In this document: positions 767-52,746 of the stretch, one piece after another | Position numbering within the stretch: the stretch's first letter is position 1 | How the letters are laid out: every line of letters starts with the position of its first letter | Assembly: GCA_045602215.1 (NCBI GenBank) | Contig: JAZSBE010000072.1 | Location: 1,390 to 65,389 of the forward strand | Origin: Eubacteriales bacterium | GTDB taxonomy: Bacteria; Bacillota; Clostridia; Oscillospirales; CAG-272 | Direction of reading: 5' to 3' | DNA length: 64,000 bases | Position numbers and translations under genes: made by a program | The notes under the pieces: generated by a model | Told to the model about the DNA's origin: nothing | The model's input: the letters and a program-made list of their open reading frames with translations, nothing else | Database searches by the model: none

Positions 767-776
767 TTTGAGGATT

Positions 777-1169: not shown

Positions 1170-1204
1170 GTTGTTCTCCCTTTGGTTTCATTCCTAAAAT
1201 TCAA

Positions 1205-2002: not shown

Positions 2003-2060
2003 CTTGTATCCCTCGTCAAATTCTTATTTGTTCATTCCATCGACAGTTTCGCAGAGATTC

Positions 2061-2636
2061 TTAGTCCATCTCCTCAAGGTGAAAATCTTTCTGCAACATA
2101 AAATAACGCTTTCTCCCGCGCGATCTGCTATTAGAGAGAATCTCCTCTATTTGACGGGAATACACGATCTCCCTTTTCAGCATCTCAACAAATGTTGTAG
2201 CCTCTTTCTCAGAAGGAATGTAATCAACAAAACTGAAAAGGAAATCAAAGTTTGTTCCGTGTCGAAACAGTCTGCCCGGCAAAGGGTAGGTTTCTCTTGC
2301 CCCAAGCATAATACCGTATCTGACAAAAGGAATCACGTTTTTATGATACATCGCTTTATGGCTGTATGTAATGGCATCGTGCGTAGTCACCGTTCCAACC
2401 TTGGATTCAATAATAATACGCGGAATAATTTTCTTGTCTACCTTCTCATAAACAACCATATCGGTTTCAAAGGATGTTTCATCGAAGCCCTCAGCATCCA
2501 CTCCCCATTCTTCATCAAACGAAGAAATTTCAAATGCGTATGGAATCTTTTTTAACACATCAATATAAATGTTGTCTCCCAAGCCCTGTTTCTGTAATAG
2601 TTCGCAAATGCTCTTTGTCCAATCGTTTTCTTTCAT
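2061..2636 (-). CDS. hypothetical protein with PD-(D/E)XK nuclease-like motif
   Basis: 191 aa. ETDMVVYE ... PRIIIESKVG gives a D-x(17)-E-x-K arrangement on predicted beta strands after an N-terminal helix. No other family recognised. Confidence 0.5.
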   Translation of the reverse strand: MKENDWTKSICELLQKQGLGDNIYIDVLKKIPYAFEISSFDEEWGVDAEGFDETSFETDMVVYEKVDKKIIPRIIIESKVGTVTTHDAITYSHKAMYHKNVIPFVRYGIMLGARETYPLPGRLFRHGTNFDFLFSFVDYIPSEKEATTFVEMLKREIVYSRQIEEILSNSRSRGRKRYFMLQKDFHLEEMD

Positions 2637-2663
2637 ATTCTTACTCCAAAACTGAATTTTTCT

Positions 2664-3413
2664 TTACGGCTCATAATCCTTTATAATTTCCATCACATCG
2701 CGCTCATACACGTTGCTGCCGAGAACGTCGCCGTTTGGCTCAAACGACACACAACGCATGTCGCGCGGATCTTCCGCGTACGGATTTTCGGGATGCTCGT
2801 CCGTGAAATACTCCGTGAGGTATTTGAGCGCGTTTCCTTCGGGGAAAATCACGTTCCCCTCTCCCACGGGAATGTCCAAATCGGCAAAGCTGGCGAGAAT
2901 CTCTCTCGTTTTTCTGTTGTACGGATTGTCATGCGTCGTGCTCACAAGCCACGCCGGCGAGAGGCGAATCGGTATGCCGCACTTCTTTGCTTCTATCGCA
3001 AACAGCTTCACCACGTTAAGCGGAATCGTTTCCTGATGGAACGCATCCACCGACAATAGCAGATCATTCACGCCGCACGCAGCAAGTCGCTGTGCGACCT
3101 CGCGAATTTTCTCGGCGTTCTTTGAAAAATAGCCGTTGGTAATGACCTGCCGCTTGGGGATATTCAATTCCTTTGCGGTTATCATAATCGCATAGACCGC
3201 ATCCGTGTAAAAAAGCGGCTCACCACCGAACGTCATCACGGTTTTGATGTCGTACGCCGCCGCGATCTTCCGCACCGCATCGGCGGCAATCTGCGGATCG
3301 ATCCGCTCACCGCAAGAGGCGTGATCGCCCTCGGAACAGTGTTTGCACCGCCCCGTACAGGCATAGGTCACGACAAATTCGATTTTGTTCAGATTTTTGA
3401 GATATCGGTTCAT
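2664..3413 (-). CDS. radical SAM domain protein
   Basis: 249 aa. CTGRCKHC (CX3CX2C) at residues 19-26, followed by a GGEPL motif. Confidence 0.8.
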   Translation of the reverse strand: MNRYLKNLNKIEFVVTYACTGRCKHCSEGDHASCGERIDPQIAADAVRKIAAAYDIKTVMTFGGEPLFYTDAVYAIMITAKELNIPKRQVITNGYFSKNAEKIREVAQRLAACGVNDLLLSVDAFHQETIPLNVVKLFAIEAKKCGIPIRLSPAWLVSTTHDNPYNRKTREILASFADLDIPVGEGNVIFPEGNALKYLTEYFTDEHPENPYAEDPRDMRCVSFEPNGDVLGSNVYERDVMEIIKDYEP

Positions 3414-3444
3414 ATTTTACTTAACGCAAGCGCAATCGCACGGT

Positions 3445-4440
3445 TCAAAGCACGATTTTATCAATCGCCGCCAGCTCTTCTTCGGTGAAGGGGGCAGCAT
3501 TCATTGCGCCGAGATTGTCGAGGATCTGCAAGGGCTTCGATGCTCCGACAAGCACGCTCGTCACCTCTTCGCGGCGCAAAACCCAAGCGAGCGCCATTTG
3601 GGCCAAAGACTCGCCTCTCTCCTTTGCCAGCGCATTCAAGGCGCGAATCTGCTCCAGCTTTTCCTCGGTCAAGCTTGTTTCCTTGAGGAAAAATCCGCTC
3701 GTGCGGATACGGCTGTCGGCGGGGATTCCGTGGAGATAGCGATCGGTCAGAAGCCCCTGCTCCAGCGGGCTGAACACGATCACGCCCTTCTTCTCCTCCC
3801 TTGCCGCGTCCAAAAGGCCGTTCTCTTCTACCCTGCGGTCGAAAATCGAGTAACGGTTTTGGTTAATGACAAAGGGACAGCGCAAATCGCGAAGGATCGC
3901 CGCCGCGCGCGCCATAGTTTCGCCGTCATAGTTTGAAAGCCCTACGTAAAGCGCCTTTCCGCTCTTGACGGCGTGATCAAGTGCGCCCATAGTTTCCTCA
4001 AGGGGTGTGTTGGGGTCGGGGCGGTGATGGTAAAAGATATCCACGTAGTCTAGCCCCAAACGCTTAAGGCTTGCATCCAGACTTGCAAGCAGGTATTTTC
4101 TGCTGCCAAAATCACCGTACGGGCCCTCCCACATGGTATAGCCCGCCTTGGTGCTGACGATCATTTCATCACGGTATGCACGCAGATCGTCCCGGAGTAT
4201 TTTGCCGAAATTTGCTTCGGCACTTCCCCCAACGGGTCTGCCATAATTGTTGGCAATATCAAAATGCGTGATCCCGTTATCAAAAGCGGTAAAGCACATT
4301 TCTCTCATATTTTCGAAATTGTCATTCGCACCGAAATTGTGCCAAAGTCCGAGCGACACGGTAGGCAATTTCAGCCCGCTTTCTCCGCATTTGTTGTATT
4401 TCATATCGCTATATCTTGCTTTGGATGCCGTGTATGCCAT
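3445..4440 (-). CDS. aldo/keto reductase (YghZ/Tas-like)
   Basis: Motifs GLWHNFG, FDIANNYG, GLSNY. Start moved from the ORF-track 4473 to the ATG at 4440, which has AAGGAGAAGG 4 nt upstream. TTGAAA-17-TATAAT lies upstream. Confidence 0.85.
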   Translation of the reverse strand: MAYTASKARYSDMKYNKCGESGLKLPTVSLGLWHNFGANDNFENMREMCFTAFDNGITHFDIANNYGRPVGGSAEANFGKILRDDLRAYRDEMIVSTKAGYTMWEGPYGDFGSRKYLLASLDASLKRLGLDYVDIFYHHRPDPNTPLEETMGALDHAVKSGKALYVGLSNYDGETMARAAAILRDLRCPFVINQNRYSIFDRRVEENGLLDAAREEKKGVIVFSPLEQGLLTDRYLHGIPADSRIRTSGFFLKETSLTEEKLEQIRALNALAKERGESLAQMALAWVLRREEVTSVLVGASKPLQILDNLGAMNAAPFTEEELAAIDKIVL

Positions 4441-4562
4441 ACGCCTTCTCCTTTGTTTTCCCTTATTCAACAACTACATTATACCACATCTTCGAGCTTA
4501 TTTCAACCCAATGCAACTTACTTTTTCCCGATGAAATTTCGCCCCTTCCGCTCCAAGAAAAA

Positions 4563-4591
4563 AGCCTTGAAAACGTTGCGTTTTCAAGGCT
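4563..4591. terminator. bidirectional Rho-independent terminator
   Basis: Perfect 13-bp stem AGCCTTGAAAACG / CGTTTTCAAGGCT with a 3-nt loop, an A-run on the left and a T-run on the right. Sits 35 nt after the AcnX small-subunit stop. Confidence 0.75.
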
Positions 4592-4625
4592 TTTTGATTA
4601 AGCTTCAATATTTTTGGGGGATTTC

Positions 4626-5069
4626 TTACTCGACTTCAACGATACCGTCGGCCTTCACCGTGATCTTCATGCCATCCTTTACGTAGGCTAAAAACTCATC
4701 GCCAAGGGAATCCACGACGGGCATGGATACGCCGTCCACCCAAACGTCAGCCAATACTGCGCCTGCGGCGGCGAGGGAGTCGATATGATTGGCAAACAGC
4801 ATACAAGCGGGATTCTTCTCCATCGCGCACGCGCAATAAAGTACGAGGCCTCCCGTGGTCGAGCCGATGGTCTGCGGCAGGCAGAGCGCCTTACCGAGCA
4901 TGGACTTTCCGTAGAGCTCCTTGTTGCTCTGATCTCCGCATTTTACTTCCTTATCACCAAACTGCAACGCCATCTGGAAGGAGGCGAGCGTGTTGAAGCC
5001 CTCCTTGGTAACGACCGCCTCGGCAGTCACCTCACCGGGAGTTACAACTCTTCCTTTGAACTGTTTCAT
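4626..5069 (-). CDS. aconitase X swivel-domain protein (DUF126, AcnX small subunit)
   Basis: 147 aa. GKALCLPQTIGSTTGGLVL and ACMLFANHIDSLAAAGAVLA match the DUF126 pattern. 4-nt overlap with the upstream DUF521 gene. Confidence 0.8.
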   Translation of the reverse strand: MKQFKGRVVTPGEVTAEAVVTKEGFNTLASFQMALQFGDKEVKCGDQSNKELYGKSMLGKALCLPQTIGSTTGGLVLYCACAMEKNPACMLFANHIDSLAAAGAVLADVWVDGVSMPVVDSLGDEFLAYVKDGMKITVKADGIVEVE

Positions 5070-6343
5070 GAAATCTTACCTCCCGTAATGGTTTTGAGAA
5101 TTTCCGCATCGGTGTAGTATCTTGCGCTCGTATAAGTGCGGAGCTTATTGGAGGACGTGATCACGGGCATCTTCTTGCAAAGCGGATTGTTCATGTACAT
5201 CAAAGGACAGATATACGAGGTGATGACCCCCGTTGCCTTCAGTCTTGCCGCGTACTCGGTTTTCTCAAACGCCTCCAGAACGGCGGGAGCGGCGGTGAAT
5301 ACCGTCTTCATAACGATCTTCTTTTTGCCGTTTGCCTTCAGTTCGTTCTCGATCTTCACCGTCCAATCCTTGAGCTGCTCCAGCGACAGATGCGGGCAAC
5401 CGACAAAGCACAGCTTGGGCGTAGCATCGGGATTCTTCCAGATGACGGGATAGTTGTTCTTGACCCGTTCGAGCTCGGCGTCGTCAATGATATATTCCTT
5501 TGCGCCCTCGGCAATCAGGCTCTCACCAAGCTCCACCGCCCCGGGAGTAAGATTTGCAATATGGTAAAGACCGACCGCGCCGTTGGAGGCGGTAGCCGCG
5601 CCAAAATCCTTGAGATAAGCACAAGCCGCATCGTCAAGCTCGTTTCCAAGCCACGTGTCAAGTCCGACCACGTAAGGAACGTCCTCCATAACCTTCATAC
5701 CGATGGCAGAGCCGAGGAGCTGTGCCTCGGGCTTCTTGGTCGTCTGAATCTTGACCACCCAGGTCGCACGTCTGCCCTCGTCGGTAAGAAGTCCAAAATA
5801 AGGAACGTAGCCCACGATCGAGCCCATAATATCAATGATGCCCGAGTTACGGTTACATCTCGCGCCAAGCACCGAGTTGGCGTAAACGACCGCGCTCGAT
5901 TCCGCCCAGGAGAGCACGTCGCCCTTCTTCGGCTTGTTGCCAACCTCGTCCAGATAGCAGGTACAGGTAAAGGCGTTCTGATCCATCAGACCGAGCTTTT
6001 CGAGCTGTCCTTCATAGAAATCCTGCTTGGTGTACATAAACTTGTTGAACACAAGGTTCTGCAAAATGTTTGCAGGAACGTTCTTGTCGATCGGACGGGG
6101 GTCCACCGAGAACTTCTGCGCAGAAGAGACGCCGGCGTCAAGAAGCTGCTGCATCAGGTCATACACGGGAGACATGACCTTGAGTCCAAAGGAGGTGACG
6201 AGGTGATTGTAGGTTGACGTGATGGGGACGAGCTTTTCCGCCTCAAACGCGTCGCCGTACATGACGAGCGTTTTCATGACCTTTGCAAGCGTTTCGCCCT
6301 GCGCGCCGTCAAGGATCGCTTGCTGTTCTTTTGTAAGTATCAT
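5066..6343 (-). CDS. aconitase X catalytic-domain protein (DUF521, AcnX large subunit)
   Basis: 425 aa. N-terminus MILTKEQQAILDGAQGETLAKVMKTLVMYGDAF is typical of DUF521. Translationally coupled to the DUF126 gene. Confidence 0.8.
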   Translation of the reverse strand: MILTKEQQAILDGAQGETLAKVMKTLVMYGDAFEAEKLVPITSTYNHLVTSFGLKVMSPVYDLMQQLLDAGVSSAQKFSVDPRPIDKNVPANILQNLVFNKFMYTKQDFYEGQLEKLGLMDQNAFTCTCYLDEVGNKPKKGDVLSWAESSAVVYANSVLGARCNRNSGIIDIMGSIVGYVPYFGLLTDEGRRATWVVKIQTTKKPEAQLLGSAIGMKVMEDVPYVVGLDTWLGNELDDAACAYLKDFGAATASNGAVGLYHIANLTPGAVELGESLIAEGAKEYIIDDAELERVKNNYPVIWKNPDATPKLCFVGCPHLSLEQLKDWTVKIENELKANGKKKIVMKTVFTAAPAVLEAFEKTEYAARLKATGVITSYICPLMYMNNPLCKKMPVITSSNKLRTYTSARYYTDAEILKTITGGKIS

Positions 6344-39371: not shown

Positions 39372-39409
39372 ACTTCATGGGCTTCGTCTCAAGCCTTTTC
39401 TCGCCTATT

Positions 39410-40234
39410 TCACATCGTCTTACGGTAGTGATCGATGTTCTGATCCTCGTTGTAGGTAGGATCTCCGGGATGAATGCCGTTCATCTCCTGCATGATGCGG
39501 TAGGCTCTGGCGCGAAGCTCCTCGGTCGCTGCGCGAGGAGGCAAGGAGGGATCGGCGTAGATGGGCTCGGCAATATGCAGATCCACGAACGGCCCCTTGC
39601 CGAAAAGCTTTCTGATCCCACGGCGCGGGCGGAAGGACATGGAGATGGGGATCAGCGGCTTCTGATACTTCACTGCGTAGGAAAAGACCGCGGGCTTGAG
39701 GGGACGGATATCGGGATAAAAGTACCACAGAGAGCCCTCGGGGAAGACGTGCAGCCACCGACCGCTCTTCACCACCTCGTCCATTCCCTTCTTGAAGGAG
39801 ATCATGGCGTGAATATCCCCCTCGGGAATGGGCATTCCTCCCAAAATCCGCATAAAGGGCTGGAATCCGCTCTCAAAATTCGGCTTCCACGCAGGAAAAT
39901 AGCTGATGTGGGGACGGATCGCCTTGAGCACACAAAGATAGTCCCACATAAAGACGTGGTTGGAGACGGTGATCGCGCCGTTTTTCAGCTCTTTTTTATG
40001 CTTTTTCAGATTCTTCCGCCCGTAGATCCGCAGTCCGTGCGTCAGGTGCGTCAGGGGAAAGACGATCAAGTGAAGCACGCACGCCACCAGCGCGCGCTTG
40101 ATGCGAAACCAAAAGCCGTGGGGCATATAATCGTAATTCTCATCCAGCTCCAGCGTGCGCGTGCGCTTGAGCTCCAGCATGTGCGCGTCGCTCCGCTCGG
40201 GATAGGTATAGTCCAGTTGATGTCTGTAATACAT
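39410..40234 (-). CDS. lysophospholipid (1-acyl-sn-glycerol-3-phosphate) acyltransferase family protein
   Basis: H(X)4D motif NHVFMWD and FPEGS motif. Start at ATG 40234 (AGAGGA RBS) instead of TTG 40264. Confidence 0.8.
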   Translation of the reverse strand: MYYRHQLDYTYPERSDAHMLELKRTRTLELDENYDYMPHGFWFRIKRALVACVLHLIVFPLTHLTHGLRIYGRKNLKKHKKELKNGAITVSNHVFMWDYLCVLKAIRPHISYFPAWKPNFESGFQPFMRILGGMPIPEGDIHAMISFKKGMDEVVKSGRWLHVFPEGSLWYFYPDIRPLKPAVFSYAVKYQKPLIPISMSFRPRRGIRKLFGKGPFVDLHIAEPIYADPSLPPRAATEELRARAYRIMQEMNGIHPGDPTYNEDQNIDHYRKTM

Positions 40235-40461
40235 GGCAGTCCGTCCTCTTTTCTTTTTCTTCAAACCGTTGGCATCAAACGATGCTTTTCTTTATTATAG
40301 CACAAAATAAAAGTTTTTTCAACATAAATCCTGCAAGAATTAAAATCCGGACAAACTCTGTATACCAATACTTGACTTTTTGTGAAAACTATAGTATAAT
40401 AATCGTGTATGCGAATCATTCGTTTTTTACGTATTTCAAACGCAAAACAAGGAGATGCACT

Positions 40462-42762
40462 ATGAGCACTTATGGCAAGTTTGTTGCTGAAAAAGAGTTT
40501 CAGATCACCACCCCCACGCCTCCCCGTCCCCAACTGAATTACATCTGGAACTCCCGCGTGTTGTCGGGAGTCAATCAGAACGGCGGCGGCGTTGGCGCTT
40601 ACGGTCAGAGAGCGATGGCCTACATCGATCCCGACGGAAAGGGCCGCTGTACGGTGATCCGCGACGGAAACAGATATTTCTACGTCAAAAACCGAGCGAC
40701 CGGAACGGTCTTCAACCCCGGTCAGTACCCCGTAAACACCCCCGTTGAGAACTACTACTGCACGCACGGTCTCGGATACAGCGAGATCCATGGCGAGTGT
40801 GAGGGCATCGGCGCTACCGCGCGGATGTTCGTCAACGATACCGACCCCTGCGAGATCTGGAAGGTCACCCTCTCCAACAACACCGACAAAACGGCGTCCG
40901 TCTCGCTCTATTCCTTCGCGGATTTTGAGCTGGTAGGATACCAGAGATACAGTGACTACAACTCCTACGTACACGCGGAATACGACGAGGAATCGAACCT
41001 GCTCATGTGCTTCAACAAGGCAATGGAGCGTCCCCACGAGTGGTTCAACGGCTTCCTCGCCTCCAGCATCAAGCCCACCGCCTTCGAGACCTCCCGCCGC
41101 GGATTCCTCGGCACCTACGGCTCGGTCAACGCGCCCGTCGCGATCCACGCAGAAAAGCTTGCAAACAACTTTGCAGCCTGCGAGCAGATGTGCGGTGCGA
41201 TGCAGCACGATTTTGACCTTGCGGCAGGCGAGAGCGTCTCTGTTTATATCCTCATCGGTGACGCCGACGAGCTGTCCACGGCAAAAGCCATCTGCGACAA
41301 GATCCTTGCAGGCAATAAGATCGAAGAGGATTTTGCGGCGCTCCTTTCTCTCAAGCAGAACACCTCCTCCAGCATCTACGTCAAGACCCCCAACGAGAAG
41401 ATCAACTGTCTGACCAACTACTGGCTCAAGCAGCAGGTTCAGCTCTGCGCCGAGGTCGGACGCGACACCGGAAAGGGCTTCCGCGACCAGCTTCAGGACG
41501 CGTGGGCGGTTGCATCCTTCAACCCCGCGCTTGCCAAGGAAAAGATCCTGGAGACTCTGACCTATATGTACTCCGACGGTCGGTGCGTGCGCGGCTGGCT
41601 CCCGCTTGACCATCACATCTACTCCGACGGCCCCACGTGGGTGACCCCCACCGTCAACGCCTACATCAAGGAAACGGGAGACGTGGACTTCCTCAACCAC
41701 CCCGTGAAGTATCTTGACGAGGGTGAGGACACCGTCTGGGGACACATTCTCACTGCGATGAGATTTGCATCGGACGATATCGGAGAGCACGGGCTCGTCC
41801 ACTCCCGCGACGGTGACTGGAACGACTCCCTCAACATGACGGGACTTCTCGGCAAGGGCGAGTCTGTCTGGACCTCCATCGCGCTCTGCTACGCCTTGAC
41901 CAATGCGGCGGAGATCGCGGAGCGTCTGATCGGGGACAACGAGATCCGAGACGAGATGCTTGCAAGACGCGAGAAGATGAAGGCAGCGATCAACGAAAAC
42001 GCATGGGACGGCGAATGGTATCTCGCGGCGATCAACGACTATAACGAAAAGGTAGGAAGCCACGAGGAGACCGAGGGTAGCATCTACCTCAACTCCCAGA
42101 CCTGGTCGATCCTCGCGCAGGTCGCAGAGGGAGAGAGAGCCAAGGCGTGCATCGCGTCGGTCGACAAGTATCTTGACAGCGACTACGGGCCTCTCACGCT
42201 CTACCCCACCTATACCAAGTTCAATAGCCGCATCGGACGTCTGACCAGCTTCATTCCCGGCATCTGGGAAAACGGCACCCCCTATTGCCACGGCGGCACC
42301 TTCAAGGTGGTTGCAGACTGTCTGCTCGGACGCGGTGATAAGGCTTACGAGACCATTCTCAAGATCATGCCCGACAGCGAGACCAACCCCTCCGATCACT
42401 CGGGATGCGAGCCCTACGCCCTGACCAATATGTACTTTGGTCCCGACAATCCCCGCAAGGGCGAGACGCTCTTTGCATGGGTGACGGGAACGGCGGGCTG
42501 GATGTTCCGCGCTGTCGTTCAGTATATGCTGGGCTTCCACCCCGATTACAACGGATTTGTACTCAATCCCTGCATTCCCTCCTCTTGGGGAGAGGTGACG
42601 CTGACGCGTAAGTTCAGAGGAGATACGTACGAGATCACCATCAAAAATGACAACCATAGCCAGTCGGGTGTCGCCTGCGTTACACTTGACGGCAAGGAGG
42701 TCGGTCAAAAGATCGAGCTTGTCGGAGACGGCTTGACGCATCAGATCGTGATTACGATGTAA
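40462..42762 (+). CDS. GH94-family glycoside phosphorylase (cellobiose/chitobiose phosphorylase-like)
   Basis: 766 aa from ATG 40462 (AAGGAG RBS). Motifs GFRDQLQD, RDGDWNDSLN, WENGTPYCHG are typical of GH94. The 844-aa antisense ORF was rejected. Confidence 0.85.
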   Translation: MSTYGKFVAEKEFQITTPTPPRPQLNYIWNSRVLSGVNQNGGGVGAYGQRAMAYIDPDGKGRCTVIRDGNRYFYVKNRATGTVFNPGQYPVNTPVENYYCTHGLGYSEIHGECEGIGATARMFVNDTDPCEIWKVTLSNNTDKTASVSLYSFADFELVGYQRYSDYNSYVHAEYDEESNLLMCFNKAMERPHEWFNGFLASSIKPTAFETSRRGFLGTYGSVNAPVAIHAEKLANNFAACEQMCGAMQHDFDLAAGESVSVYILIGDADELSTAKAICDKILAGNKIEEDFAALLSLKQNTSSSIYVKTPNEKINCLTNYWLKQQVQLCAEVGRDTGKGFRDQLQDAWAVASFNPALAKEKILETLTYMYSDGRCVRGWLPLDHHIYSDGPTWVTPTVNAYIKETGDVDFLNHPVKYLDEGEDTVWGHILTAMRFASDDIGEHGLVHSRDGDWNDSLNMTGLLGKGESVWTSIALCYALTNAAEIAERLIGDNEIRDEMLARREKMKAAINENAWDGEWYLAAINDYNEKVGSHEETEGSIYLNSQTWSILAQVAEGERAKACIASVDKYLDSDYGPLTLYPTYTKFNSRIGRLTSFIPGIWENGTPYCHGGTFKVVADCLLGRGDKAYETILKIMPDSETNPSDHSGCEPYALTNMYFGPDNPRKGETLFAWVTGTAGWMFRAVVQYMLGFHPDYNGFVLNPCIPSSWGEVTLTRKFRGDTYEITIKNDNHSQSGVACVTLDGKEVGQKIELVGDGLTHQIVITM

Positions 42763-42782
42763 TCCGTCAGACCATATAAGGA

Positions 42783-42830
42783 ATCCCCCTCTCATTTAAG
42801 CAATCTGCTCATTGAGAGGGGGATTTTTTT
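42783..42830. terminator. Rho-independent terminator between convergent genes
   Basis: 12-bp stem ATCCCCCTCTCA / TGAGAGGGGGAT followed by T7. Confidence 0.75.
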
Positions 42831-43974: not shown

Positions 43975-44003
43975 TTGACAATTTCCCTTTCGGGTAGTAT
44001 AAT
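43975..44003 (+). promoter_or_regulatory. sigma70-type promoter of the T-box leader
   Basis: TTGACA (43975-43980), 17 nt, TATAAT (43998-44003); perfect consensus. Confidence 0.65.
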
Positions 44004-44029
44004 GTGTGTAACATTTGAATATCACAAAA

Positions 44030-44292
44030 AACGACGTTGACGAAGACGGTCGGAATGTGGAGTCTGCAGAGAGTTGGCGGTTGCTGCGAGCCAATGACGA
44101 AACGTTTCAATGACCTATCACTTCTGAGTCGAAGGACCGAACGCTTTTTTTTGCAAGTAGACTCCTTCCGTAATGCTGCGTAAAGGCAAAGGGCTTGTCA
44201 GAGTCCGGAAAGTGGCGAAACGACCGTTTCGCAATTTGAGTGGTACCGCGGGTGTAATGCTCGTCTCAAGTTTTTGAGACGGGTTTTTTGTT
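44030..44292 (+). promoter_or_regulatory. T-box riboswitch leader (specifier most consistent with AUC, Ile)
   Basis: K-turn CGAC-GUU-GA-CGAAG (44032-44045) pairs with CUUCU-GA-GUCG (44121-44131). AG bulge AGAGAG (44068-44073), distal loop GGTTGCTGCGA, AAGTAG Stem II start. T-box AATTTGAGTGGTACCGCGG (44233-44251). Terminator CGTCTC/GAGACG followed by T-run (44262-44290). Confidence 0.85.
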
Positions 44293-44346
44293 TTATTCAA
44301 TGCCGTAATACCGCCCGATGGGGCAACGGAAACGAAAGGAGCAAAA

Positions 44347-46650
44347 ATGGATTTTAATTTGAAAGAAGTTGCCGATAGAATCAAGGAGCTTCGGGAAGCC
44401 AAGGGCTTTACGCAGGCAGAGCTTGCAAAGCTGACGGGTGTGTCCGAGGAGGACTATCGGATTTTGGAGATGGGCGAGACGGACTTTACCTTCACGTTCA
44501 TCTATAAGTGCGCCAAGGCGTGCGGCGTTGAGGTGGTAGATCTGCTTGAGGGTACCAGCTCGACTCTGACCTCCTTCTCCATCACGCGTCGGGGTGAGGG
44601 ACTCAAGATCGTCAAGAAAAACGGTTTTGTCTACAACAACCTCGCGCCCAAGTTCAAGGATAAGCTTGCCGAGCCCTTCCTCGTCAGCTTCCCCTATATC
44701 CCCGAGGAGCAGAACGCGCCCCTCAAGCTCAGCTCTCACAACGGTCAGGAGTTTGACGTCATCGTCAAGGGAGCTCTGAAGGTTCAGGTGGGCGACCACG
44801 TGGATATCCTCAATGAGGGCGACTCCATCTTCTATAACAGTCTCATTCCCCACGGCATGATCGCGGTCAGCGAGGGCGGATGCGAGTTCCACGCAGTGGT
44901 GCTCAATCCCCAGAACGGCGAGGTCACCGAGGAATATCCCGAAACGCCTTACGTTGTCGCCAAGGCGCCCGTAGTCGAAAAGAGCGCCGAAACGGTTGCA
45001 GACAAGTTCGTGACCTCCTCCTACGACGAGCACGGCGTCTTCAACGGCATCACATTCAAGAATGACGATCAGTTCAACTTCGCGTTCGACTGCGTTGACG
45101 CGATCGCTGACAAGGATCCAGACAAGCTCGCGATGATGTGGGTGGCAAACGATAAGACCGACCGCCGCTTCACCTTCCGCGATATGAAGCGCTATTCGGC
45201 AAAGACCGCAAACTATTTTGAATCGCTCGGCATCAAGAAGGGCGACACCGTTATGCTGGTGCTCAAGCGTCACTACCAGTTCTGGTTCTGTATGCTTGCG
45301 CTCCACAAGATCGGCGCGATCGCAATTCCCGCGACCAATCAGCTCGTCGAGCACGACTTTGCATACCGCTACAAGGCGGCAAAGGTCAAGGCGATCGTTT
45401 GCACCGCCGACGGAGACGTCTCTCTCGAGGCAGAAAAGGCTGCCGCCGAGTACCCCGAAATGGTCAAGATCCTTGTGGGCGGCAAGAAGGACGGCTGGAA
45501 GGACTTCAACGTAGAAATGGAGCGCTTCAGCACCCATTACTACCGCAACGAGAATACCCCCTGCGGCAATGACCCCATGCTCATGCTCTTTACCTCGGGC
45601 ACGACGGGTTACCCCCGCATCGCAACCCATTCCTACAAATATGCTCTGGGTCACTACCCCACGGCAAAGCATTGGCACAACGTCAACCCCGACGGCCTGC
45701 ACTTCACCATCTCGGATACGGGCTGGGGTAAGGCTCTCTGGGGCAAGCTCTACGGTCAGTGGCTGTGCGAGGCAGGTGTCTTCACCTACGACTTCGACCG
45801 ATTCCACTCCGAGGATATTCTTCCCCTCTTCAAGAAGTACAACATCACCACCTTCTGCGCTCCCCCCACCATGTATCGCTTCTTTATCAAGGAGGACCTC
45901 TCCAAGTACGATCTTTCCTCGATCCAGTACGCGACCACGGCAGGAGAAGCGCTCAATCCCGAGGTGTTCAACCAGTTCAAGAAGGCAACGGGACTTACCA
46001 TCATGGAAGGCTTCGGACAGACCGAGACCACCCTGTCGGTTGCAAACTTCGTGGGCTCTACACCCAGAATCGGCTCGATGGGTAAGCCCAGTCCGCTCTA
46101 TGACGTGGTGATCCTTGATCCCGACGGAAACGAGTGCAAGACGGGTGACACGGGTGAAATCTGCATCCGCACCAAGGACAACGTTCCCTGCGGCCTCTTC
46201 ATCGGCTACTATCTTGATGAAGAAAAGACCAACGACGTGTGGCACGACGGCTACTACCACACGGGCGACCAGGCGACCATGGACGAGGACGGATACCTCT
46301 GGTACGTGGGTCGAATCGACGACGTCATCAAATCCTCGGGTTACCGTATCGGCCCGTTTGAGATCGAGAGCGTGATCATGGAGCTTCCCTACGTGCTGCA
46401 ATGCGCCATCACCCCCGTTCCCGACGAGGTGCGCGGACAGATCGTCAAGGCGACCATCGTGCTCACCAAGGGCACCGTCGGCACCGACGCCCTCAAGAAG
46501 GAGATCCAAGAATACGTCAAGACGCACACCGCGCCCTACAAGTACCCCCGAATCGTGGAGTTCGTTGACGAGCTTCCCAAGACCATCAGCGGCAAGGTCA
46601 GACGTGTGGAGATCCGCAAGAAGGATCTCGAAAAAGCAAACGAGAAATAA
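44347..46650 (+). CDS. fusion protein: XRE-type HTH + cupin domain + AMP-forming (medium-chain type) acyl-CoA synthetase
   Basis: HTH FTQAELAKLTGVSEEDYRILEMGE. Cupin GQEFDVIVKGALKVQVGD...IPHGM. Ligase motifs FTSGTTGYPR, YHTGD, GRIDDVIKSSGYRIGPFEIE, PKTISGKVRR. AAAGGAG RBS. The antisense 744-aa ORF was rejected. Confidence 0.85.
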   Translation: MDFNLKEVADRIKELREAKGFTQAELAKLTGVSEEDYRILEMGETDFTFTFIYKCAKACGVEVVDLLEGTSSTLTSFSITRRGEGLKIVKKNGFVYNNLAPKFKDKLAEPFLVSFPYIPEEQNAPLKLSSHNGQEFDVIVKGALKVQVGDHVDILNEGDSIFYNSLIPHGMIAVSEGGCEFHAVVLNPQNGEVTEEYPETPYVVAKAPVVEKSAETVADKFVTSSYDEHGVFNGITFKNDDQFNFAFDCVDAIADKDPDKLAMMWVANDKTDRRFTFRDMKRYSAKTANYFESLGIKKGDTVMLVLKRHYQFWFCMLALHKIGAIAIPATNQLVEHDFAYRYKAAKVKAIVCTADGDVSLEAEKAAAEYPEMVKILVGGKKDGWKDFNVEMERFSTHYYRNENTPCGNDPMLMLFTSGTTGYPRIATHSYKYALGHYPTAKHWHNVNPDGLHFTISDTGWGKALWGKLYGQWLCEAGVFTYDFDRFHSEDILPLFKKYNITTFCAPPTMYRFFIKEDLSKYDLSSIQYATTAGEALNPEVFNQFKKATGLTIMEGFGQTETTLSVANFVGSTPRIGSMGKPSPLYDVVILDPDGNECKTGDTGEICIRTKDNVPCGLFIGYYLDEEKTNDVWHDGYYHTGDQATMDEDGYLWYVGRIDDVIKSSGYRIGPFEIESVIMELPYVLQCAITPVPDEVRGQIVKATIVLTKGTVGTDALKKEIQEYVKTHTAPYKYPRIVEFVDELPKTISGKVRRVEIRKKDLEKANEK

Positions 46651-46656
46651 AAATAA

Positions 46657-46688
46657 GAGGCAAGGATCTAGGTCCTTGCCTCATTTTC
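46657..46688. terminator. bidirectional terminator shared by the convergent ligase and symporter genes
   Basis: 10-bp stem GAGGCAAGGA / TCCTTGCCTC, A-rich on the left and ATTTTCTT on the right. Confidence 0.7.
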
Positions 46689-50197: not shown

Positions 50198-51190
50198 ATG
50201 CCAGGACCGGGCGGCGGCAGTAACGGCGGTGGCGGATCCCGAGGCGGCTTTGGAGGCGGAAGCTACGGCGGAGGCTCCAGAGGTGGCTTTGGAGGAGGCT
50301 TTGGCGGCGGACATCACGGCGGATTCGGAGGTCCCCATCGTCCCCCACGCAGAGGACATTATTTTGGCGGACCTTTTTGGGGCGGCTATTGGGGCCCCAG
50401 AAGATATTATTACGGAGGTGGCGGCTGTCTCGGCGGGCTTCTCGGGCTGATCTTTGTGCCCGTGATCCTGATCCTGATGGCGGCAGTGATGCTTTTTGCC
50501 ACCGTTGGAACGGCGTTCACAGACGTTACCAGTGGCGGAAGCGTGAAGTATGACGAGAACACCTTCCAGGACTATGCGGACGCGCAGTATCGCGCGGAAT
50601 TTGGCAATTCCACCGCATACGAGGACAATCTTCTCCTCGTGGTACTGGTGGATGAGGACTATTACGATTACCATTATATCGCGTGGGTGGGCGATCACAT
50701 TCAGACTGACATCAACAAGCTGTTTGGAAACGAGCGCACCGAGTTTGGCAGAGCGATGGAGGCAAACGTCAACGTCAACTCCTATAAATACTCGCTCGAC
50801 TCCAATCTCGCCCAGGTCGTGGAGCAGATGACCGCGGTCATTGAACAGAAGAATCTGGAGAGCTCCTTCAAATGTAAAGAAGAGCATATCCAGGTCAATT
50901 CGCACGTGACCAATAAAACCGATCTCGACGTCACCGAGGAAACGGTTAACCTCGCCCTCACGGAATTTACCGAGACCACGGGAATCCCGATCGTTTTGGT
51001 GGTGGATGACGCCGAGGACGTGTTTGGAAAAACGATTGATTCCGGCTCGATCGTCATTGTCCTTCTTTCGGTTGCGATGATTGGCTTTGCAATCTATCTG
51101 ATCGTAAAATCCGTCCGTCAAAAGAGAGAGGACGGAGATGGGGGCGGTGGATACCGTGATTCCCGATCCGATCGCTCCGGCGGTTGGTAA
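50198..51190 (+). CDS. membrane protein with Gly/Arg/Phe-rich low-complexity termini and a TPM-like central domain
   Basis: 330 aa. Residues 1-75 are GGSRGGFGGGSYGGG-type repeats. Two TM helices flank a ~200-aa domain (DNLLLVVLVDED..YIAWVGD). The C-terminal tail is GDGGGGYRDSRSDRSGGW. GTGAGGA RBS. Confidence 0.65.
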   Translation: MPGPGGGSNGGGGSRGGFGGGSYGGGSRGGFGGGFGGGHHGGFGGPHRPPRRGHYFGGPFWGGYWGPRRYYYGGGGCLGGLLGLIFVPVILILMAAVMLFATVGTAFTDVTSGGSVKYDENTFQDYADAQYRAEFGNSTAYEDNLLLVVLVDEDYYDYHYIAWVGDHIQTDINKLFGNERTEFGRAMEANVNVNSYKYSLDSNLAQVVEQMTAVIEQKNLESSFKCKEEHIQVNSHVTNKTDLDVTEETVNLALTEFTETTGIPIVLVVDDAEDVFGKTIDSGSIVIVLLSVAMIGFAIYLIVKSVRQKREDGDGGGGYRDSRSDRSGGW

Positions 51191-52447: not shown

Positions 52448-52521
<74 letters not shown>

Positions 52522-52579
52522 TAACATTGTTGCTTCCCGTCTTGAAAGACGGGAAGCAAACTAATGTTTCATCTCTGAT

Positions 52580-52656
<77 letters not shown>

Positions 52657-52668
52657 GAAATTGAATAT

Positions 52669-52746
52669 GGTGGGATTGGCGCAGTTGGTTAGCGCGTCAG
52701 GTTGTGGCCCTGAAGGCCGTGGGTTCGAATCCCATATCTCACCCCA
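52669..52746 (+). tRNA. tRNA-His (anticodon GUG) with extra 5' G(-1), CCA encoded
   Basis: G-1 followed by acceptor GTGGGAT/ATCTCAC, anticodon stem TCAGG/CCTGA with loop TTGTGGC (GTG at 52704-52706), T-loop GGTTCGAATCC. Confidence 0.9.

What the first reader, a model, noticed from the sequence alone, without database searches (positions are those of the whole stretch)
43975..46650. T-box riboswitch (probably Ile, AUC) controlling an HTH-cupin::acyl-CoA synthetase fusion instead of an aaRS, biosynthesis or transport gene
Seen in sequence: a consensus promoter is followed by a complete T-box leader.
- Stem I has a canonical K-turn: 5' CGAC-GUU-GA-CGAAG with 3' CUUCU-GA-GUCG.
- It also has AG bulge AGAGAG, distal loop GGUUGCUGCGA, and a Stem II start AAGUAG.
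- The T-box sequence is AAUUUGAGUGGUACCGCGG, followed by a terminator with a U-run.
The nucleotides abutting the lower helix strand CUUC read ..CCUAUCA. By the rule 'codon followed by a purine next to the helix', the specifier is AUC-A (44117-44120), meaning Ile. UAU is the alternative register.
The antiterminator bulge reads UGGU, so the cognate tRNA should have A73. That fits Ile or Tyr and excludes Gly (U73).
The regulated ORF is one 767-aa protein. It combines an XRE-type HTH, a cupin and a complete AMP-forming acyl-CoA ligase of the medium-chain type (FTSGTTGYPR, YHTGD, GRIDDVIKSSGYRIGPFEIE, PKTISGKVRR).
Established knowledge: T-box regulons consist of aaRS, amino-acid biosynthesis and transporter genes. 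Inference: the ligase may activate a short branched-chain acid such as 2-methylbutyrate. That could feed reductive-carboxylation synthesis of isoleucine, a route long known in rumen and gut anaerobes. The medium-chain ligase family includes an archaeal member reported to prefer 2-methylbutyrate. The fused HTH-cupin suggests a second, ligand-dependent regulatory layer.
Basis: partly seen in the sequence, partly recalled or inferred. Interest (0 to 1): 0.7.

Follow-up and report, generated by a model that had tools for sequence, protein, structure and literature searches.

The report
Isoleucine T-box controlling a branched-acid CoA ligase
A real isoleucine-sensing T-box RNA switch controls a fused enzyme that most likely activates 2-methylbutyrate so the cell can rebuild isoleucine from this gut fermentation acid, which points to the long-unassigned first gene of a pathway known from rumen bacteria since the 1960s.

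Summary
A 12/12 sigma-70 promoter, a full-length T-box leader (Rfam RF00230, 97.6 bits, E 3e-20), a terminator and a 767-aa HTH_3–Cupin_2–AMP-binding ORF sit at the stated coordinates.

The specifier is AUC (Ile, 44117-44119). It is invariant in 77 orthologous leaders, while the preceding base varies U/C, which rules out the UAU/Tyr register.

- The fusion family splits into two paralog clades. One always carries AUC (Ile) T-boxes and the other GUC/GUA (Val) T-boxes, often in tandem.
- One active-site residue tracks the codon perfectly: Gly with Ile (119/119) and Ala with Val (20/20).
- The ligase domain is closest to the 2-methylbutyrate-preferring M. acetivorans Macs (PDB 3ETC).
- In at least 14 relatives the T-box–ligase unit lies in a co-directional cluster that carries IlvE, VorB and/or the oxidoreductase beta subunit.

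The best reading is Ile-starvation-induced 2-methylbutyrate:CoA ligase feeding reductive carboxylation to isoleucine.

The T-box itself is atypical, with a tiny 2×5-nt specifier loop and no S-turn. The role of the HTH-cupin module is unresolved. I found no description of this system in the searchable literature.

The parts
43975..44003 (+). sigma-70-type promoter TTGACA-17 nt-TATAAT
   Evidence: 12/12 consensus match. -35/-10 hexamers are conserved upstream of orthologous leaders while the spacer varies.
44013..44025 (+). Conserved leader 5' motif AUUUGAAUAUCAC (TTGAATA core at 44015-44021) between the -10 element and Stem I. Role unknown.
   Evidence: Nearly invariant in L002-L081 orthologs although the flanking promoter spacer is variable. 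Complementary to TATTCAA at 44294-44300 just after the terminator; both motifs are present in 54/74 orthologous leaders.
44028..44271 (+). T-box leader, Rfam RF00230, full length
   Evidence: cmscan 97.6 bits (gathering score 93), E 3.1e-20, model 1-219. Leader conserved upstream of all 80 species-level orthologs at 69-94% identity.
44032..44131 (+). Stem I: K-turn (CGAC-GUU-GA / GA-GUCG), lower helix GAAG/CUUC, upper helix GGUC/GACC, AG bulge 44068-44073, distal loop 44079-44089
   Evidence: Sequence. Covariation on 70 sequences: lower helix 100% paired, upper helix 4/4 pairs with compensatory changes, distal helix 5/5.
44117..44119 (+). Specifier codon AUC (Ile), followed by A44120. It lies in a small asymmetric internal loop (5' AC 44046-44047 / 3' UAUCA 44116-44120) without an S-turn.
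   Evidence: cmscan alignment. ATC invariant in 77/77 orthologs with the preceding base T/C. 126/127 non-redundant family Stem I sequences have a helix of at least 3 bp starting within 0-3 nt of the codon; the 2-nt/1-nt layout seen here occurs in 93 of them.
44233..44251 (+). T-box sequence AAUUUGAGUGGUACCGCGG. Antiterminator 44237-44268 with 7-nt bulge UGGUACC (44241-44247). UGGU pairs with tRNA 3' NCCA, N = A73.
   Evidence: AATTTGAGTGGTACCGCGG recurs, with few substitutions, across Ile- and Val-type leaders.
44259..44290 (+). Intrinsic terminator (11-bp stem, 4-nt loop) plus U-run. Its 5' arm overlaps the antiterminator 3' arm.
   Evidence: MFE -16.7 kcal/mol against -6.8 kcal/mol for the antiterminator.
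44294..44300 (+). Conserved post-terminator motif UAUUCAA, complementary to the 5' leader UUGAAUA
   Evidence: Invariant rather than covarying, so RNA pairing and a protein site cannot be told apart.
44347..46650 (+). 767-aa fusion protein: XRE-type HTH + cupin + Macs/MbcS-type AMP-forming acyl-CoA ligase. RBS GAAAGGAG at 44334-44341.
   Evidence: Pfam, NCBIfam, PDB 3ETC 674 bits. 451 GTDB species genomes encode a relative.
44380..44541 (+). HTH_3 domain (residues 12-65)
   Evidence: Pfam PF01381, 38.1 bits against cut-off 23. PDB hits 1Y9Q and 434 repressor.
44731..44898 (+). Cupin_2 domain (residues 129-184) with invariant H131/E135/H169
   Evidence: Pfam PF07883, 34.6 bits against cut-off 27.2. 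Invariant columns. Triad motif present in 168/171 fusions. HppE hits.
45103..46596 (+). AMP-binding (residues 253-622) and AMP-binding_C (672-750) ligase domains
   Evidence: MacsMa residues Trp259, Gly459-Tyr460-Lys461, Arg490, Lys519, Tyr525 and Tyr527 are conserved, apart from Lys461, which aligns to Arg (alignment, residues from PMC10455477).
45727..45729 (+). Codon of Gly461 in DTGW-G-KALWGK: predicted specificity switch (Gly = Ile/2-methylbutyrate type; Ala = Val/isobutyrate type)
   Evidence: The only ligase-domain position with 100%/100% separation of the two clades. AUC with Gly 119/119; GUC/GUA with Ala 20/20.
46657..46682 (.). Bidirectional terminator hairpin shared with the convergent SSF transporter gene
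   Evidence: reported on both strands.

Best explanation
This is a transcription-attenuating T-box riboswitch specific for tRNA-Ile (specifier AUC). It controls a monocistronic gene for a Macs/MbcS-type AMP-forming acyl-CoA ligase fused to an N-terminal HTH-cupin module.

Proposed mechanism.
1. When tRNA-Ile is charged, the terminator at 44259-44290 forms and transcription stops.
2. When Ile is scarce, uncharged tRNA-Ile pairs its GAU anticodon with AUC in Stem I, and its free NCCA end pairs with UGGU in the antiterminator bulge. The antiterminator is stabilised and RNA polymerase reads into the gene.
3. The enzyme then converts environmental 2-methylbutyrate (abundant in rumen and hindgut) plus ATP and CoA into 2-methylbutyryl-CoA.
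4. A 2-oxoisovalerate-type ferredoxin oxidoreductase (VOR) reductively carboxylates this to 2-oxo-3-methylvalerate.
5. IlvE transaminates that to isoleucine.

What is shown and what is inferred.
- Shown here: the T-box anatomy, the Ile specifier, its conservation, the paralog/codon/active-site correlation, and the VOR-IlvE gene neighbourhood in relatives.
- Inferred: tRNA-dependent read-through, the substrate, and the direction of flux.
For: T-box and specifier.
- Rfam hit above the gathering score; promoter and terminator.
- AUC is invariant in 77 orthologs while the -1 base varies.
- The helices flanking the specifier covary.

Function.
- The ligase domain's best solved relative is MacsMa (3ETC), E 1e-201. 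Its preferred substrate is 2-methylbutyrate (PMC10455477), and its functional residues are conserved here.
- The best NCBIfam model is MbcS, a 2-methylbutyrate/isobutyrate ligase that handles isovalerate poorly (PMC10026030).
- Across 171 non-identical fusions, the called T-boxes carry only AUC or GUC/GUA (one leader, L136, is ambiguous).
- The NJ tree splits cleanly into an Ile-codon clade and a Val-codon clade.
- Tandem arrays occur, for example L094: AUC T-box–fusion, GUC T-box–fusion, CUC T-box–LeuA-like.
- Gly461 with Ile and Ala with Val, without exception. That is a one-methyl change in the enzyme matching the one-methylene difference between 2-methylbutyrate and isobutyrate. MacsMa has Gly.
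- In at least 14 loci the T-box–fusion unit is followed co-directionally by some or all of: IlvE (NF009897, 476 bits against cut-off 307), a P-loop protein, VorB (NF005507, 548.7 bits against cut-off 399) and an OFOR beta subunit. L086 has an aminotransferase directly downstream.
- The source organisms are ruminant-gut Oscillospirales MAGs. Isoleucine and valine synthesis from 2-methylbutyrate and isobutyrate is documented in that setting (Allison and co-workers, cited in PMC7356843).
Against: - No VOR or IlvE gene lies within this 64-kb window or within ±6 kb of the 80 close orthologs. For this organism the partner enzymes are therefore assumed, not seen.
- The protein scores below the NCBIfam MbcS equivalog cut-off (453 against 850).
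- The specifier loop lacks the S-turn found in canonical T-boxes and in the Leu, Phe and Tyr T-boxes of the same genomes, and no experiment shows that this variant binds tRNA.
- The base after the codon is C in about 17% of family members rather than the usual purine.
- About 24 of the 171 non-identical family members have no detectable T-box.
- The Gly/Ala–codon association reflects two clades, so it is effectively one evolutionary event.
- The HTH-cupin module is not explained by this model.
Confidence: 0.75

Rival explanations
1. The ligase makes 2-methylbutyryl-CoA as a primer for anteiso branched-chain fatty acids, the MbcS role in S. aureus. The Ile T-box induces it because, when Ile is scarce, the usual Ile-derived primer supply fails.
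For: - The best NCBIfam model is MbcS.
- MbcS salvages exactly 2-methylbutyrate and isobutyrate for FabH priming (PMC10026030).
- The close orthologs have no VOR or IlvE neighbour.
Against: - In at least 14 relatives the ligase lies in a co-directional cluster with IlvE and/or VorB and an OFOR beta subunit, not with fab genes.
- L086 has an aminotransferase directly downstream.
- A separate Val-specific T-box on the isobutyrate-type paralog fits amino-acid supply better than lipid priming.
- The two roles are not mutually exclusive, because the acyl-CoA product could serve both.
Confidence: 0.12
2. The protein is primarily a transcription factor. The HTH binds DNA, and the cupin and/or the ligase domain serves as the sensor, as in BirA, where the adenylate acts as corepressor. 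The T-box simply sets the level of this regulator.
For: - HTH_3 and Cupin_2 are above Pfam cut-offs and conserved down to about 50% identity.
- The best PDB hit for the N-terminal module is the HTH-cupin regulator 1Y9Q.
- A conserved TTGAATA / TATTCAA inverted pair flanks the leader in 54/74 orthologs.
Against: - All catalytic and CoA-binding residues of MacsMa are retained, and the enzyme-specific Gly/Ala switch tracks the T-box codon. This argues for a working enzyme.
- The N-terminal module has no Ile-versus-Val discriminating positions except K54R and K106R.
- It equally resembles HppE, whose HTH-like domain does not bind DNA.
- No palindromic operator is shared with the family members that lack a T-box.
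Confidence: 0.06
3. The T-box senses a different tRNA (Tyr through UAU, or Ser through UCA/UCC/UCG), and the ligase acts on an unrelated acid such as 4-hydroxyphenylacetate. This would match the neighbouring Tyr-T-box transporter.
For: - The convergent neighbour at 48568-46689 is under a Tyr (UAC) T-box.
- UAU is present in this one sequence.
- The base after AUC varies A/C/G, as a third codon position would.
Against: - The base before AUC is C in about a third of leaders (CAU is His), so UAU is not conserved.
- The lower helix begins one base after AUC in all 70 aligned sequences (100% paired), which leaves no purine after a UCN register.
- The sister clade has GUC/GUA at the same columns.
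- The SSF/Tyr T-box neighbour occurs only in the window and its closest relative L002.
- Aromatic acids have their own Phe-T-box PaaK-type ligase in these genomes.
Confidence: 0.02

Closest known systems
Canonical transcriptional T-box leaders (Rfam RF00230; e.g. B. subtilis tyrS, ileS, glyQS)
   Same: - K-turn at the base of Stem I.
- AG bulge and distal loop platform.
- Specifier codon next to the lower helix.
- Stem II with AAGUAG, and Stem III.
- 14-nt T-box sequence with a UGGN bulge.
- Mutually exclusive antiterminator and terminator.
- Scores above the Rfam gathering threshold.
   Different: - The specifier loop is a 2×5-nt internal loop with no AGUA/GAA S-turn. A covarying 4-bp helix starts one base before the codon.
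- The Leu, Phe and Tyr T-boxes in the same genomes keep the S-turn and score 101.8-132 bits, against 65-100 bits for this class.
- The regulated gene is an acyl-CoA ligase, not an aaRS, a classical biosynthetic gene or a transporter.
Methanosarcina acetivorans medium-chain acyl-CoA synthetase MacsMa (PDB 3ETC)
   Same: - 674 bits, E 1e-201, over the whole ligase domain.
- Trp259, Gly459/Tyr460/Lys461, Arg490, Lys519, Tyr525/Tyr527 and the Gly that replaces Acs Trp414 are conserved, apart from Lys461, which aligns to Arg (PMC10455477).
- Gly at the 461-equivalent position, as in the Ile clade.
- MacsMa prefers 2-methylbutyrate.
   Different: - MacsMa is archaeal and stand-alone (native length about 557 aa by the tag offset inferred), with no HTH-cupin domain and no T-box.
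- Its physiological role is unknown.
Staphylococcus aureus MbcS (methylbutyryl-CoA synthetase)
   Same: - Best NCBIfam model.
- Activates 2-methylbutyrate and isobutyrate but handles isovalerate poorly (PMC10026030). This mirrors a family with only Ile and Val clades, while the Leu T-boxes sit on a different ligase.
   Different: - The score of 453 is below the equivalog cut-off of 850, so this is not an MbcS equivalog.
- MbcS feeds fatty-acid priming, is not fused to an HTH-cupin, and is not reported to be T-box controlled.
Reductive carboxylation of branched-chain volatile fatty acids to Ile/Val/Leu in rumen anaerobes (Allison and co-workers), using VOR-type 2-oxoacid:ferredoxin oxidoreductases
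   Same: - Ecology: ruminant gut MAGs.
- Substrates implied by the Ile and Val codons.
- VorB, an OFOR beta subunit and IlvE encoded next to the ligase in relatives.
   Different: - In the sources I could read, the pathway is described from labelling experiments, not genes (PMC7356843).
- I found no gene assignment for the acid-activation step and no link to T-box control in the searchable literature.
HTH-cupin proteins: 1Y9Q-type XRE/cupin regulators, HppE, and (by function only) bifunctional enzyme-repressors such as BirA
   Same: - N-terminal XRE-type HTH followed by a cupin with a 2-His-1-Glu motif.
- Fused to an adenylate-forming enzyme, as in BirA.
   Different: - No evidence here of DNA binding or of an operator.
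- HppE shows that this two-domain fold can be purely enzymatic.
- BirA is unrelated in sequence.

Membership tests
T-box leader (RF00230) | Covariance-model score at or above the curated gathering score | tested here: met
   97.6 bits against 93, E 3.1e-20, full model. Some orthologs and paralogs fall below the gathering score (65-87 bits).
T-box leader (RF00230) | Stem I with basal K-turn, AG bulge and distal loop | tested here: met
   Sequence. GA and AGAGA columns invariant. Basal, lower and distal helices covary.
T-box leader (RF00230) | Specifier loop with S-turn (AGUA/GAA) presenting a codon followed by a purine | tested here: not met
   A codon (AUC) followed by A is present in the window. 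The S-turn is absent: cmscan deletes the AGUA positions, and a covarying helix abuts the codon, leaving a 2×5-nt loop. The following base is C in 21/127 family members.
T-box leader (RF00230) | Conserved T-box sequence forming an antiterminator with a UGGN bulge, competing with a terminator | tested here: met
   AAUUUGAGUGGUACCGCGG; 7-nt bulge; overlapping terminator at -16.7 against -6.8 kcal/mol.
T-box leader (RF00230) | Read-through dependent on uncharged cognate tRNA | not testable with these tools
   Needs in-vitro transcription or in-vivo reporters. No tRNA-Ile gene lies in the window.
Macs/MbcS-type short/medium branched-chain acyl-CoA synthetases | AMP-binding N and C domains with the MacsMa catalytic, CoA-binding and acyl-pocket residues | tested here: met
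   Pfam. 3ETC alignment with Trp259, Gly459-Tyr460-Lys461, Arg490, Lys519, Tyr525 and Tyr527 conserved (Lys461 aligns to Arg), and Gly at the Acs Trp414 position (PMC10455477).
Macs/MbcS-type short/medium branched-chain acyl-CoA synthetases | NCBIfam MbcS equivalog cut-off | tested here: not met
   453 bits against cut-off 850. This is a relative, not an equivalog.
Macs/MbcS-type short/medium branched-chain acyl-CoA synthetases | Preference for 2-methylbutyrate | not testable with these tools
   Inferred from the Ile T-box, the Gly461 against Ala pattern and homology.
BCVFA reductive-carboxylation pathway (ligase + VOR + IlvE) | Ligase encoded with VOR subunits and a branched-chain aminotransferase | tested here: inconclusive
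   Met in at least 14 distant relatives, e.g. L087, L090, L122, L125, L126, L131. Not met in this window or in ±6 kb of the 80 close orthologs. The rest of the genome is unavailable.
XRE-HTH/cupin transcription regulators | HTH_3 and Cupin_2 domains above curated cut-offs | tested here: met
   38.1 against 23 and 34.6 against 27.2 bits. 1Y9Q hit at E 8e-6.
XRE-HTH/cupin transcription regulators | Sequence-specific DNA binding to an operator | not testable with these tools
   Only a conserved TTGAATA...TATTCAA pair flanking the leader was found. No shared palindrome was found in family members that lack a T-box.

The most novel reading that the evidence does not exclude
The locus may be a two-input AND gate built from an RNA switch and a bifunctional enzyme-regulator.
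- The S-turn-less T-box reports isoleucine demand (uncharged tRNA-Ile).
- The HTH-cupin-ligase fusion autoregulates at the DNA or RNA level through the conserved TTGAATA/TATTCAA elements that bracket the leader, reporting availability of 2-methylbutyrate or its adenylate, in the manner of BirA.
- The costly ATP-consuming salvage enzyme would then be made only when the amino acid is needed and the precursor acid is present.

Together with the Val paralog, the Leu-T-box TIM-barrel::ligase and the Phe-T-box PaaK-type ligase, this would define a T-box-governed 'acid-to-amino-acid salvage regulon' in gut Oscillospirales.
Probability: 0.25. Interest if true: 0.85.

Novelty: new variant of a known kind. 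Interest (0 to 1): 0.74.

Why it matters
- **Gene candidates for an old pathway.** Rumen and gut anaerobes have been known since the 1960s to build Ile, Val, Leu and Phe by reductive carboxylation of fermentation acids. I found no gene assignment for the acid-activating step in the searchable literature. The T-box codons here act as natural labels: Ile and Val T-boxes sit on two Macs-type paralogs, a Leu T-box on a different ligase, and a Phe T-box on a PaaK-type ligase. This gives concrete gene candidates for the whole salvage scheme in a large, mostly uncultured group; 451 GTDB species genomes encode a relative of the fusion.
- **A testable specificity code.** Gly461 against Ala predicts 2-methylbutyrate against isobutyrate.
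- **A wider T-box regulon.** It would now include carboxylate-activating enzymes.
- **A new T-box form.** It shows a widespread T-box variant that lacks the S-turn thought to present the codon. That bears on models of tRNA decoding by Stem I.
- **Practical relevance.** Branched-chain volatile fatty acid supplements are studied as feed additives.

Tried and rejected
- **UAU (Tyr) register.** Rejected. The first U is C in many orthologs.
- **UCN (Ser) register.** Rejected. The lower helix starts one base after AUC in every sequence. One leader (L136, GUCAA) stays ambiguous between GUC and UCA.
- **Functional link to the adjacent Tyr-T-box SSF transporter.** Rejected as a conserved pairing. It is seen only in the window and in L002.
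- **VOR, IOR or IlvE in the window.** None found among 28 ORFs scanned.
- **Exact-protein contig look-up for the window protein.** Not on record.
- **The search for related loci with a 9-sequence alignment.** It was rerun with 3 sequences.
- **Literature.** No paper held both 'phenylacetate-CoA ligase' and 'T-box'; the searches on T-box with acyl-CoA synthetase/specifier or 2-methylbutyrate, and on BCVFA with ferredoxin oxidoreductase and carboxylation, returned papers but nothing relevant. Wels 2008 does not mention CoA ligases. Vitreschak 2008, Shah 2009 and Meng 2010 are not held in the library, so prior mention in those papers or in T-box databases cannot be excluded.
- **Operator for the HTH.** No palindrome is shared between promoters with and without a T-box. 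The TTGAATA/TATTCAA pair is invariant rather than covarying, so RNA pairing and protein binding cannot be separated.
- **The ~222-aa ORF as an OFOR gamma subunit.** Not supported. It gives only weak MinD/ParA/NUBPL-type P-loop hits.
- **T-boxes upstream of the T-box-less subclades (L118, L123, L129, L141, L143).** None found with a permissive Rfam scan.
- **Mapping Gly461 to Acs Val310.** This rests on my memory of the Acs literature plus motif alignment. It was not verified here.

Full report
**1. What is at the coordinates.**
- The region 43975-46650 holds a perfect sigma-70 promoter, TTGACA-17-TATAAT, at 43975-44003.
- Twenty-four bases downstream lies a complete T-box leader. Rfam RF00230 matches 44028-44271 over the full model at 97.6 bits (gathering score 93, E 3.1e-20).
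- The antiterminator (44237-44268, -6.8 kcal/mol, 7-nt UGGUACC bulge) shares its 3' arm with an 11-bp terminator followed by a U-run (44259-44290, -16.7 kcal/mol). This is the classical arrangement, in which the weaker antiterminator needs tRNA to win.
- After a GAAAGGAG ribosome-binding site, the ORF 44347-46650 encodes 767 aa: HTH_3 (12-65), Cupin_2 (129-184), AMP-binding (253-622) and AMP-binding_C (672-750). All are above Pfam cut-offs.
- A bidirectional hairpin at 46657-46682 ends the gene. The unit is monocistronic.

**2. Which amino acid.**
- The cmscan alignment puts GACCuAUCA directly before the CUUC strand of the lower helix, that is AUC followed by A.
- To test the register I fetched the gene from other genomes. 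A scan of one genome per GTDB species found 451 genomes encoding a relative. The best 80 (87-97% protein identity) are all uncultured Eubacteriales, Acutalibacteraceae or Oscillospiraceae MAGs, largely from ruminant guts.
- The window's leader finds a homologous leader upstream of the gene in all 80, at 69-94% identity.
- In a MAFFT alignment of 77 leaders the region reads GACC[U/C]AUC[A/C/G]CUUC. AUC never changes, while the base before it is U or C. UAU (Tyr) therefore becomes CAU in many species and is not the specifier.
- The UGGU bulge (pairing with A73) is invariant. It fits tRNA-Ile but does not discriminate.

**3. An atypical specifier loop.**
- The Rfam alignment deletes the AGUA positions on the 5' side.
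- Directly above the codon, GGUC (44048-44051) pairs with GACC (44112-44115).
- On 70 diverse Stem I sequences of this family, this upper helix has compensatory changes at all 4 pairs. The lower helix is 100% paired. Overall, 91.2% of cells pair against 74.9% in column shuffles, with 15 of 17 pairs changed on both sides and 0 of 500 shuffles as high. Sliding the partner by ±1-3 columns gives only 25-49% pairing.
- In 126 of 127 non-redundant Stem I sequences, a helix of at least 3 bp starts within 0-4 nt on the 5' side and 0-3 nt before the codon. The dominant form is 5' AC / 3' Y-codon-N.
- The loop is therefore a 2×5-nt internal loop with no S-turn.
- The Tyr, Leu and Phe T-boxes in the same window and loci have the canonical AGUA...GAA-codon-purine loop, and they score higher (101.8-132 bits against 65-100 bits).
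- I therefore file this as a T-box by overall architecture, but one defining feature was tested and not met.

**4. What the enzyme is.**
- The ligase domain's best solved relative by far is PDB 3ETC (674 bits, E 1e-201; the next is 377 bits). This is the Methanosarcina acetivorans medium-chain acyl-CoA synthetase, whose preferred substrate is 2-methylbutyrate (PMC10455477).
- The 3ETC chain numbering can be converted to native numbering using Gly459-Tyr460-Lys461 (offset 23). On that basis the residues shown in that paper to matter are conserved in the window protein: Trp259, Gly459/Tyr460/Lys461, Arg490, Lys519 and Tyr525/Tyr527 (Lys461 aligns to Arg). The Gly that replaces the acetate-restricting Trp414 of Acs is also present (W465, G557 and so on).
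- The best NCBIfam model is S. aureus MbcS, but at 453 bits against a cut-off of 850. MbcS activates 2-methylbutyrate and isobutyrate, and isovalerate only poorly (PMC10026030).

**5. The decisive comparative evidence.**
- A profile-free search of 1.8 billion cluster representatives showed three full-length fusion clusters, at 86%, 55% and 41% identity.
- The 55% homolog P0122 sits in tandem with another fusion, and each has its own T-box. One reads ..CCuAUCA|CUUC (Ile) and the other GAG-GUC-G|CUCC (Val).
- A metagenome scan with P0122 returned 80 further diverse loci (48-64% identity).
- I called specifiers by anchoring on the K-turn and lower helix, with manual checks. Every callable T-box upstream of a fusion carries AUC, GUC or GUA; one (L136) is ambiguous between GUC and UCA.
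- Arrays such as L094 read: AUC T-box–fusion, GUC T-box–fusion, CUC T-box–LeuA-like gene.
- A neighbour-joining tree of 98 non-redundant fusions splits cleanly. One clade has only GUC/GUA T-boxes (plus second-in-operon genes). The other has only AUC T-boxes (plus some subclades without a T-box). The window protein lies in the Ile clade.
- I searched for positions that are at least 85% conserved in each clade but different between them. Only four exist in the whole protein, and only one is 100%/100%: window Gly461 against Ala, in the motif DTGW-[G/A]-KALWGK. This lies four residues before the Trp259 equivalent. The second ligase-domain site is Thr559 against Ser, two residues after the Gly at the Acs Trp414 position.
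- Over all 171 non-identical fusions, AUC goes with Gly in 119/119 and GUC/GUA with Ala in 20/20.
- MacsMa, the 2-methylbutyrate enzyme, has Gly.
- One extra methyl group in the protein matches one carbon fewer in the presumed substrate (isobutyrate against 2-methylbutyrate).
- From memory, this position aligns with Val310 of the Acs acetate pocket. I could not verify that here.
- The association is phylogenetically a single split, so it counts as one well-preserved event, not 139 independent ones.

**6. Pathway context.**
- I clustered all flanking ORFs of the 166 loci to find recurrent neighbours.
- In at least 14 of the diverse loci the T-box–fusion unit is followed, co-directionally and in several loci with short gaps, by some or all of the following:
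  - a class IV aminotransferase (NCBIfam branched-chain amino acid aminotransferase, 476 bits against cut-off 307);
  - a ~222-aa P-loop protein;
  - a POR_N/PFOR_II protein (VorB, 548.7 bits against cut-off 399);
  - a TPP-binding beta subunit.
- Examples: in L087 the fusion is followed by IlvE, the P-loop protein, VorB and the beta subunit. L122 spans 372-5529.
- L086 has T-box(AUC)–fusion–fusion–aminotransferase.
- These gene sets cover the three steps needed to turn a branched acid into its amino acid: activation, reductive carboxylation and transamination.
- An AMP-forming ligase makes sense only in the synthetic direction, and induction by uncharged tRNA makes sense only for supply.
- Synthesis of Ile from 2-methylbutyrate and of Val from isobutyrate by rumen anaerobes is established physiology (Robinson & Allison 1969; Allison & Peel 1971; cited in PMC7356843).
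- In this window, and in the ±6 kb flanks of its 80 close orthologs, no VOR or IlvE gene is present. For this organism the partner enzymes are inferred.

**7. How it most likely works.**
- Shown: the promoter, an Ile-specific T-box with a terminator/antiterminator switch, and a Macs-type ligase of the 'Gly461' type.
- Inferred: under Ile limitation, uncharged tRNA-Ile(GAU) docks on AUC and on the AG-bulge/distal-loop platform, and its free CCA end stabilises the antiterminator. The gene is then transcribed.
- Inferred: the enzyme makes 2-methylbutyryl-CoA from scavenged 2-methylbutyrate. VOR carboxylates it with reduced ferredoxin, and IlvE yields isoleucine.
- I put this at 0.75.
- The main rival (0.12) is an MbcS-like role supplying anteiso fatty-acid primers. 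The product could serve both ends, but the IlvE/VOR operons and the separate Val T-box favour amino-acid supply.

**8. The HTH-cupin module.**
- It is conserved across the family. His131, Glu135 and His169 are invariant, and the triad motif is present in 168/171 fusions.
- By sequence it resembles both an HTH-cupin regulator of unknown function (1Y9Q) and the enzyme HppE. In HppE, as I recall, the same 2-His-1-Glu triad binds iron and the HTH-like domain does not bind DNA.
- It has no positions that separate the Ile clade from the Val clade except two conservative Lys/Arg sites. It is therefore unlikely to read the side chain of the acid or the amino acid.
- In the window's clade, a nearly invariant UUGAAUA lies just after the -10 element and a complementary UAUUCAA lies just after the terminator. 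Both are present in 54/74 leaders. They do not covary and are absent from distant relatives, so I cannot say whether they form an RNA helix enclosing the leader or are protein sites.

**9. Comparison with what is known, and novelty.**
- The RNA is a T-box, a known kind, with a non-canonical specifier loop.
- The enzyme is a Macs/MbcS-type ligase, also a known kind, with a new fusion.
- The pathway is known from physiology.
- New, as far as I could search: the T-box control of carboxylate-CoA ligases, the Ile/Val paralog pair with a one-residue code, and the resulting gene assignment for the activation step.
- Wels et al. 2008 list 62% aaRS, 18% biosynthesis, 12% transport and 8% other, and do not mention CoA ligases. 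Full-text searches combining T-box with acyl-CoA synthetase, 2-methylbutyrate or phenylacetate-CoA ligase gave nothing relevant.
- Several key papers and the T-box databases could not be consulted. An earlier passing mention therefore cannot be excluded.
- I rate this a new variant of a known kind, with interest 0.74.

Noticed in passing
window 48604-46689 (- strand): A second, canonical T-box (48568-48322, 128.9 bits) has its own 12/12 promoter (48604-48576) and specifier GAA-UAC-A (Tyr). It drives a 516-aa sodium:solute symporter (48239-46689) convergent with the ligase gene. The transporter is below every NCBIfam equivalog cut-off (closest PutP/PanF). Its substrate could be tyrosine or an aromatic acid. 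The arrangement is shared only with the closest relative, L002.
   Followed up: partly
L026:1424-5600, L040, L042, L006, L007, L016 and others; L001:18263-14072 (-); L094:7575: A Leu T-box (GAA-CUC, 124.6-132 bits) precedes a short LeuA-like protein (about 462 aa, HMGL-like + LeuA_dimer, below LeuA cut-offs) followed by an AP_endonuc_2 (TIM-barrel)::AMP-binding fusion of about 820 aa. In at least 17 close orthologous loci this operon lies directly upstream of, and co-directional with, the Ile-T-box fusion. It is a candidate Leu/isovalerate branch of the same salvage logic.
   Followed up: partly
L018:5965-4332 (-), L040:8418-10061, L042:11572-13224, L013, L065, L072: Phe T-boxes (GAA-UUC) precede a 435-aa PaaK-type ligase (AMP-binding + AMP-binding_C_2). 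This suggests T-box-controlled phenylacetate activation for phenylalanine synthesis. No paper held both 'phenylacetate-CoA ligase' and 'T-box'.
   Followed up: partly
L087:3605-4258, L090:5322-5987, L122:2786-3481, L125:7257-7928 and 7 more loci: A conserved ~222-aa protein sits upstream of VorB (directly, or with one intervening ORF) in the 11 loci that carry it, after the fusion or IlvE. It gives only weak MinD/ParA/NUBPL-type P-loop hits and no NCBIfam hit. It may be an Fe-S maturation or accessory factor for the oxidoreductase.
   Followed up: partly
L010:4019-5590, L001:12401-13813 and 14 other close orthologous loci: A ~480-aa protein with an ACT (amino-acid-binding) domain, and a weak metallo-beta-lactamase/RNase J-like region, recurs next to the Ile-T-box fusion gene (directly downstream in L001) in 16 of the close orthologs. 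It is not present at that position in the window.
   Followed up: no
window 44015-44021 and 44294-44300: UUGAAUA at the 5' end of the leader and UAUUCAA immediately after the terminator U-run are complementary. Both are conserved in 54/74 orthologous leaders and extend to 9-11 bp in some. This could be a helix closing the read-through leader or a pair of protein sites. There is no covariation to decide between them.
   Followed up: partly
window 44731-44898 (residues 129-184): The cupin has invariant His131, Glu135 and His169, a 2-His-1-carboxylate arrangement like that of HppE. This suggests a bound metal and possibly catalysis or sensing rather than mere scaffolding.
   Followed up: partly
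L137:~3440-3670, L138, L139, L156, L162; L109:2377-2611: Some Ile-clade fusions have leaders with a recognisable Stem I and AUC specifier but a degenerate T-box core (e.g. AGAGUGGUUAAGUAAGG). L109 has UGGUUCC in place of UGGUACC. These may be decaying or mechanistically altered T-boxes.
   Followed up: no
L149, L150, L155, L161, L163 (Ala), L160 (Leu), L086:4493-6769 (Glu): Fusions without a T-box in other subclades carry Ala, Leu or Glu at the Gly461 position. This hints at further substrate specificities in the family.
   Followed up: no
window 52448-52746: tRNA cluster Gly(UCC)-Arg(UCU)-His(GUG). There is no tRNA-Ile in the window.
   Followed up: no
window 40261-42795 (-), 50198-51190 (+), 39377-40300 (+): Long ORFs near the locus have no Pfam hits, including an 844-aa ORF two genes upstream of the T-box promoter on the opposite strand. 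Several are shadowed by equally long ORFs on the other strand, so the gene calls there are uncertain.
   Followed up: no
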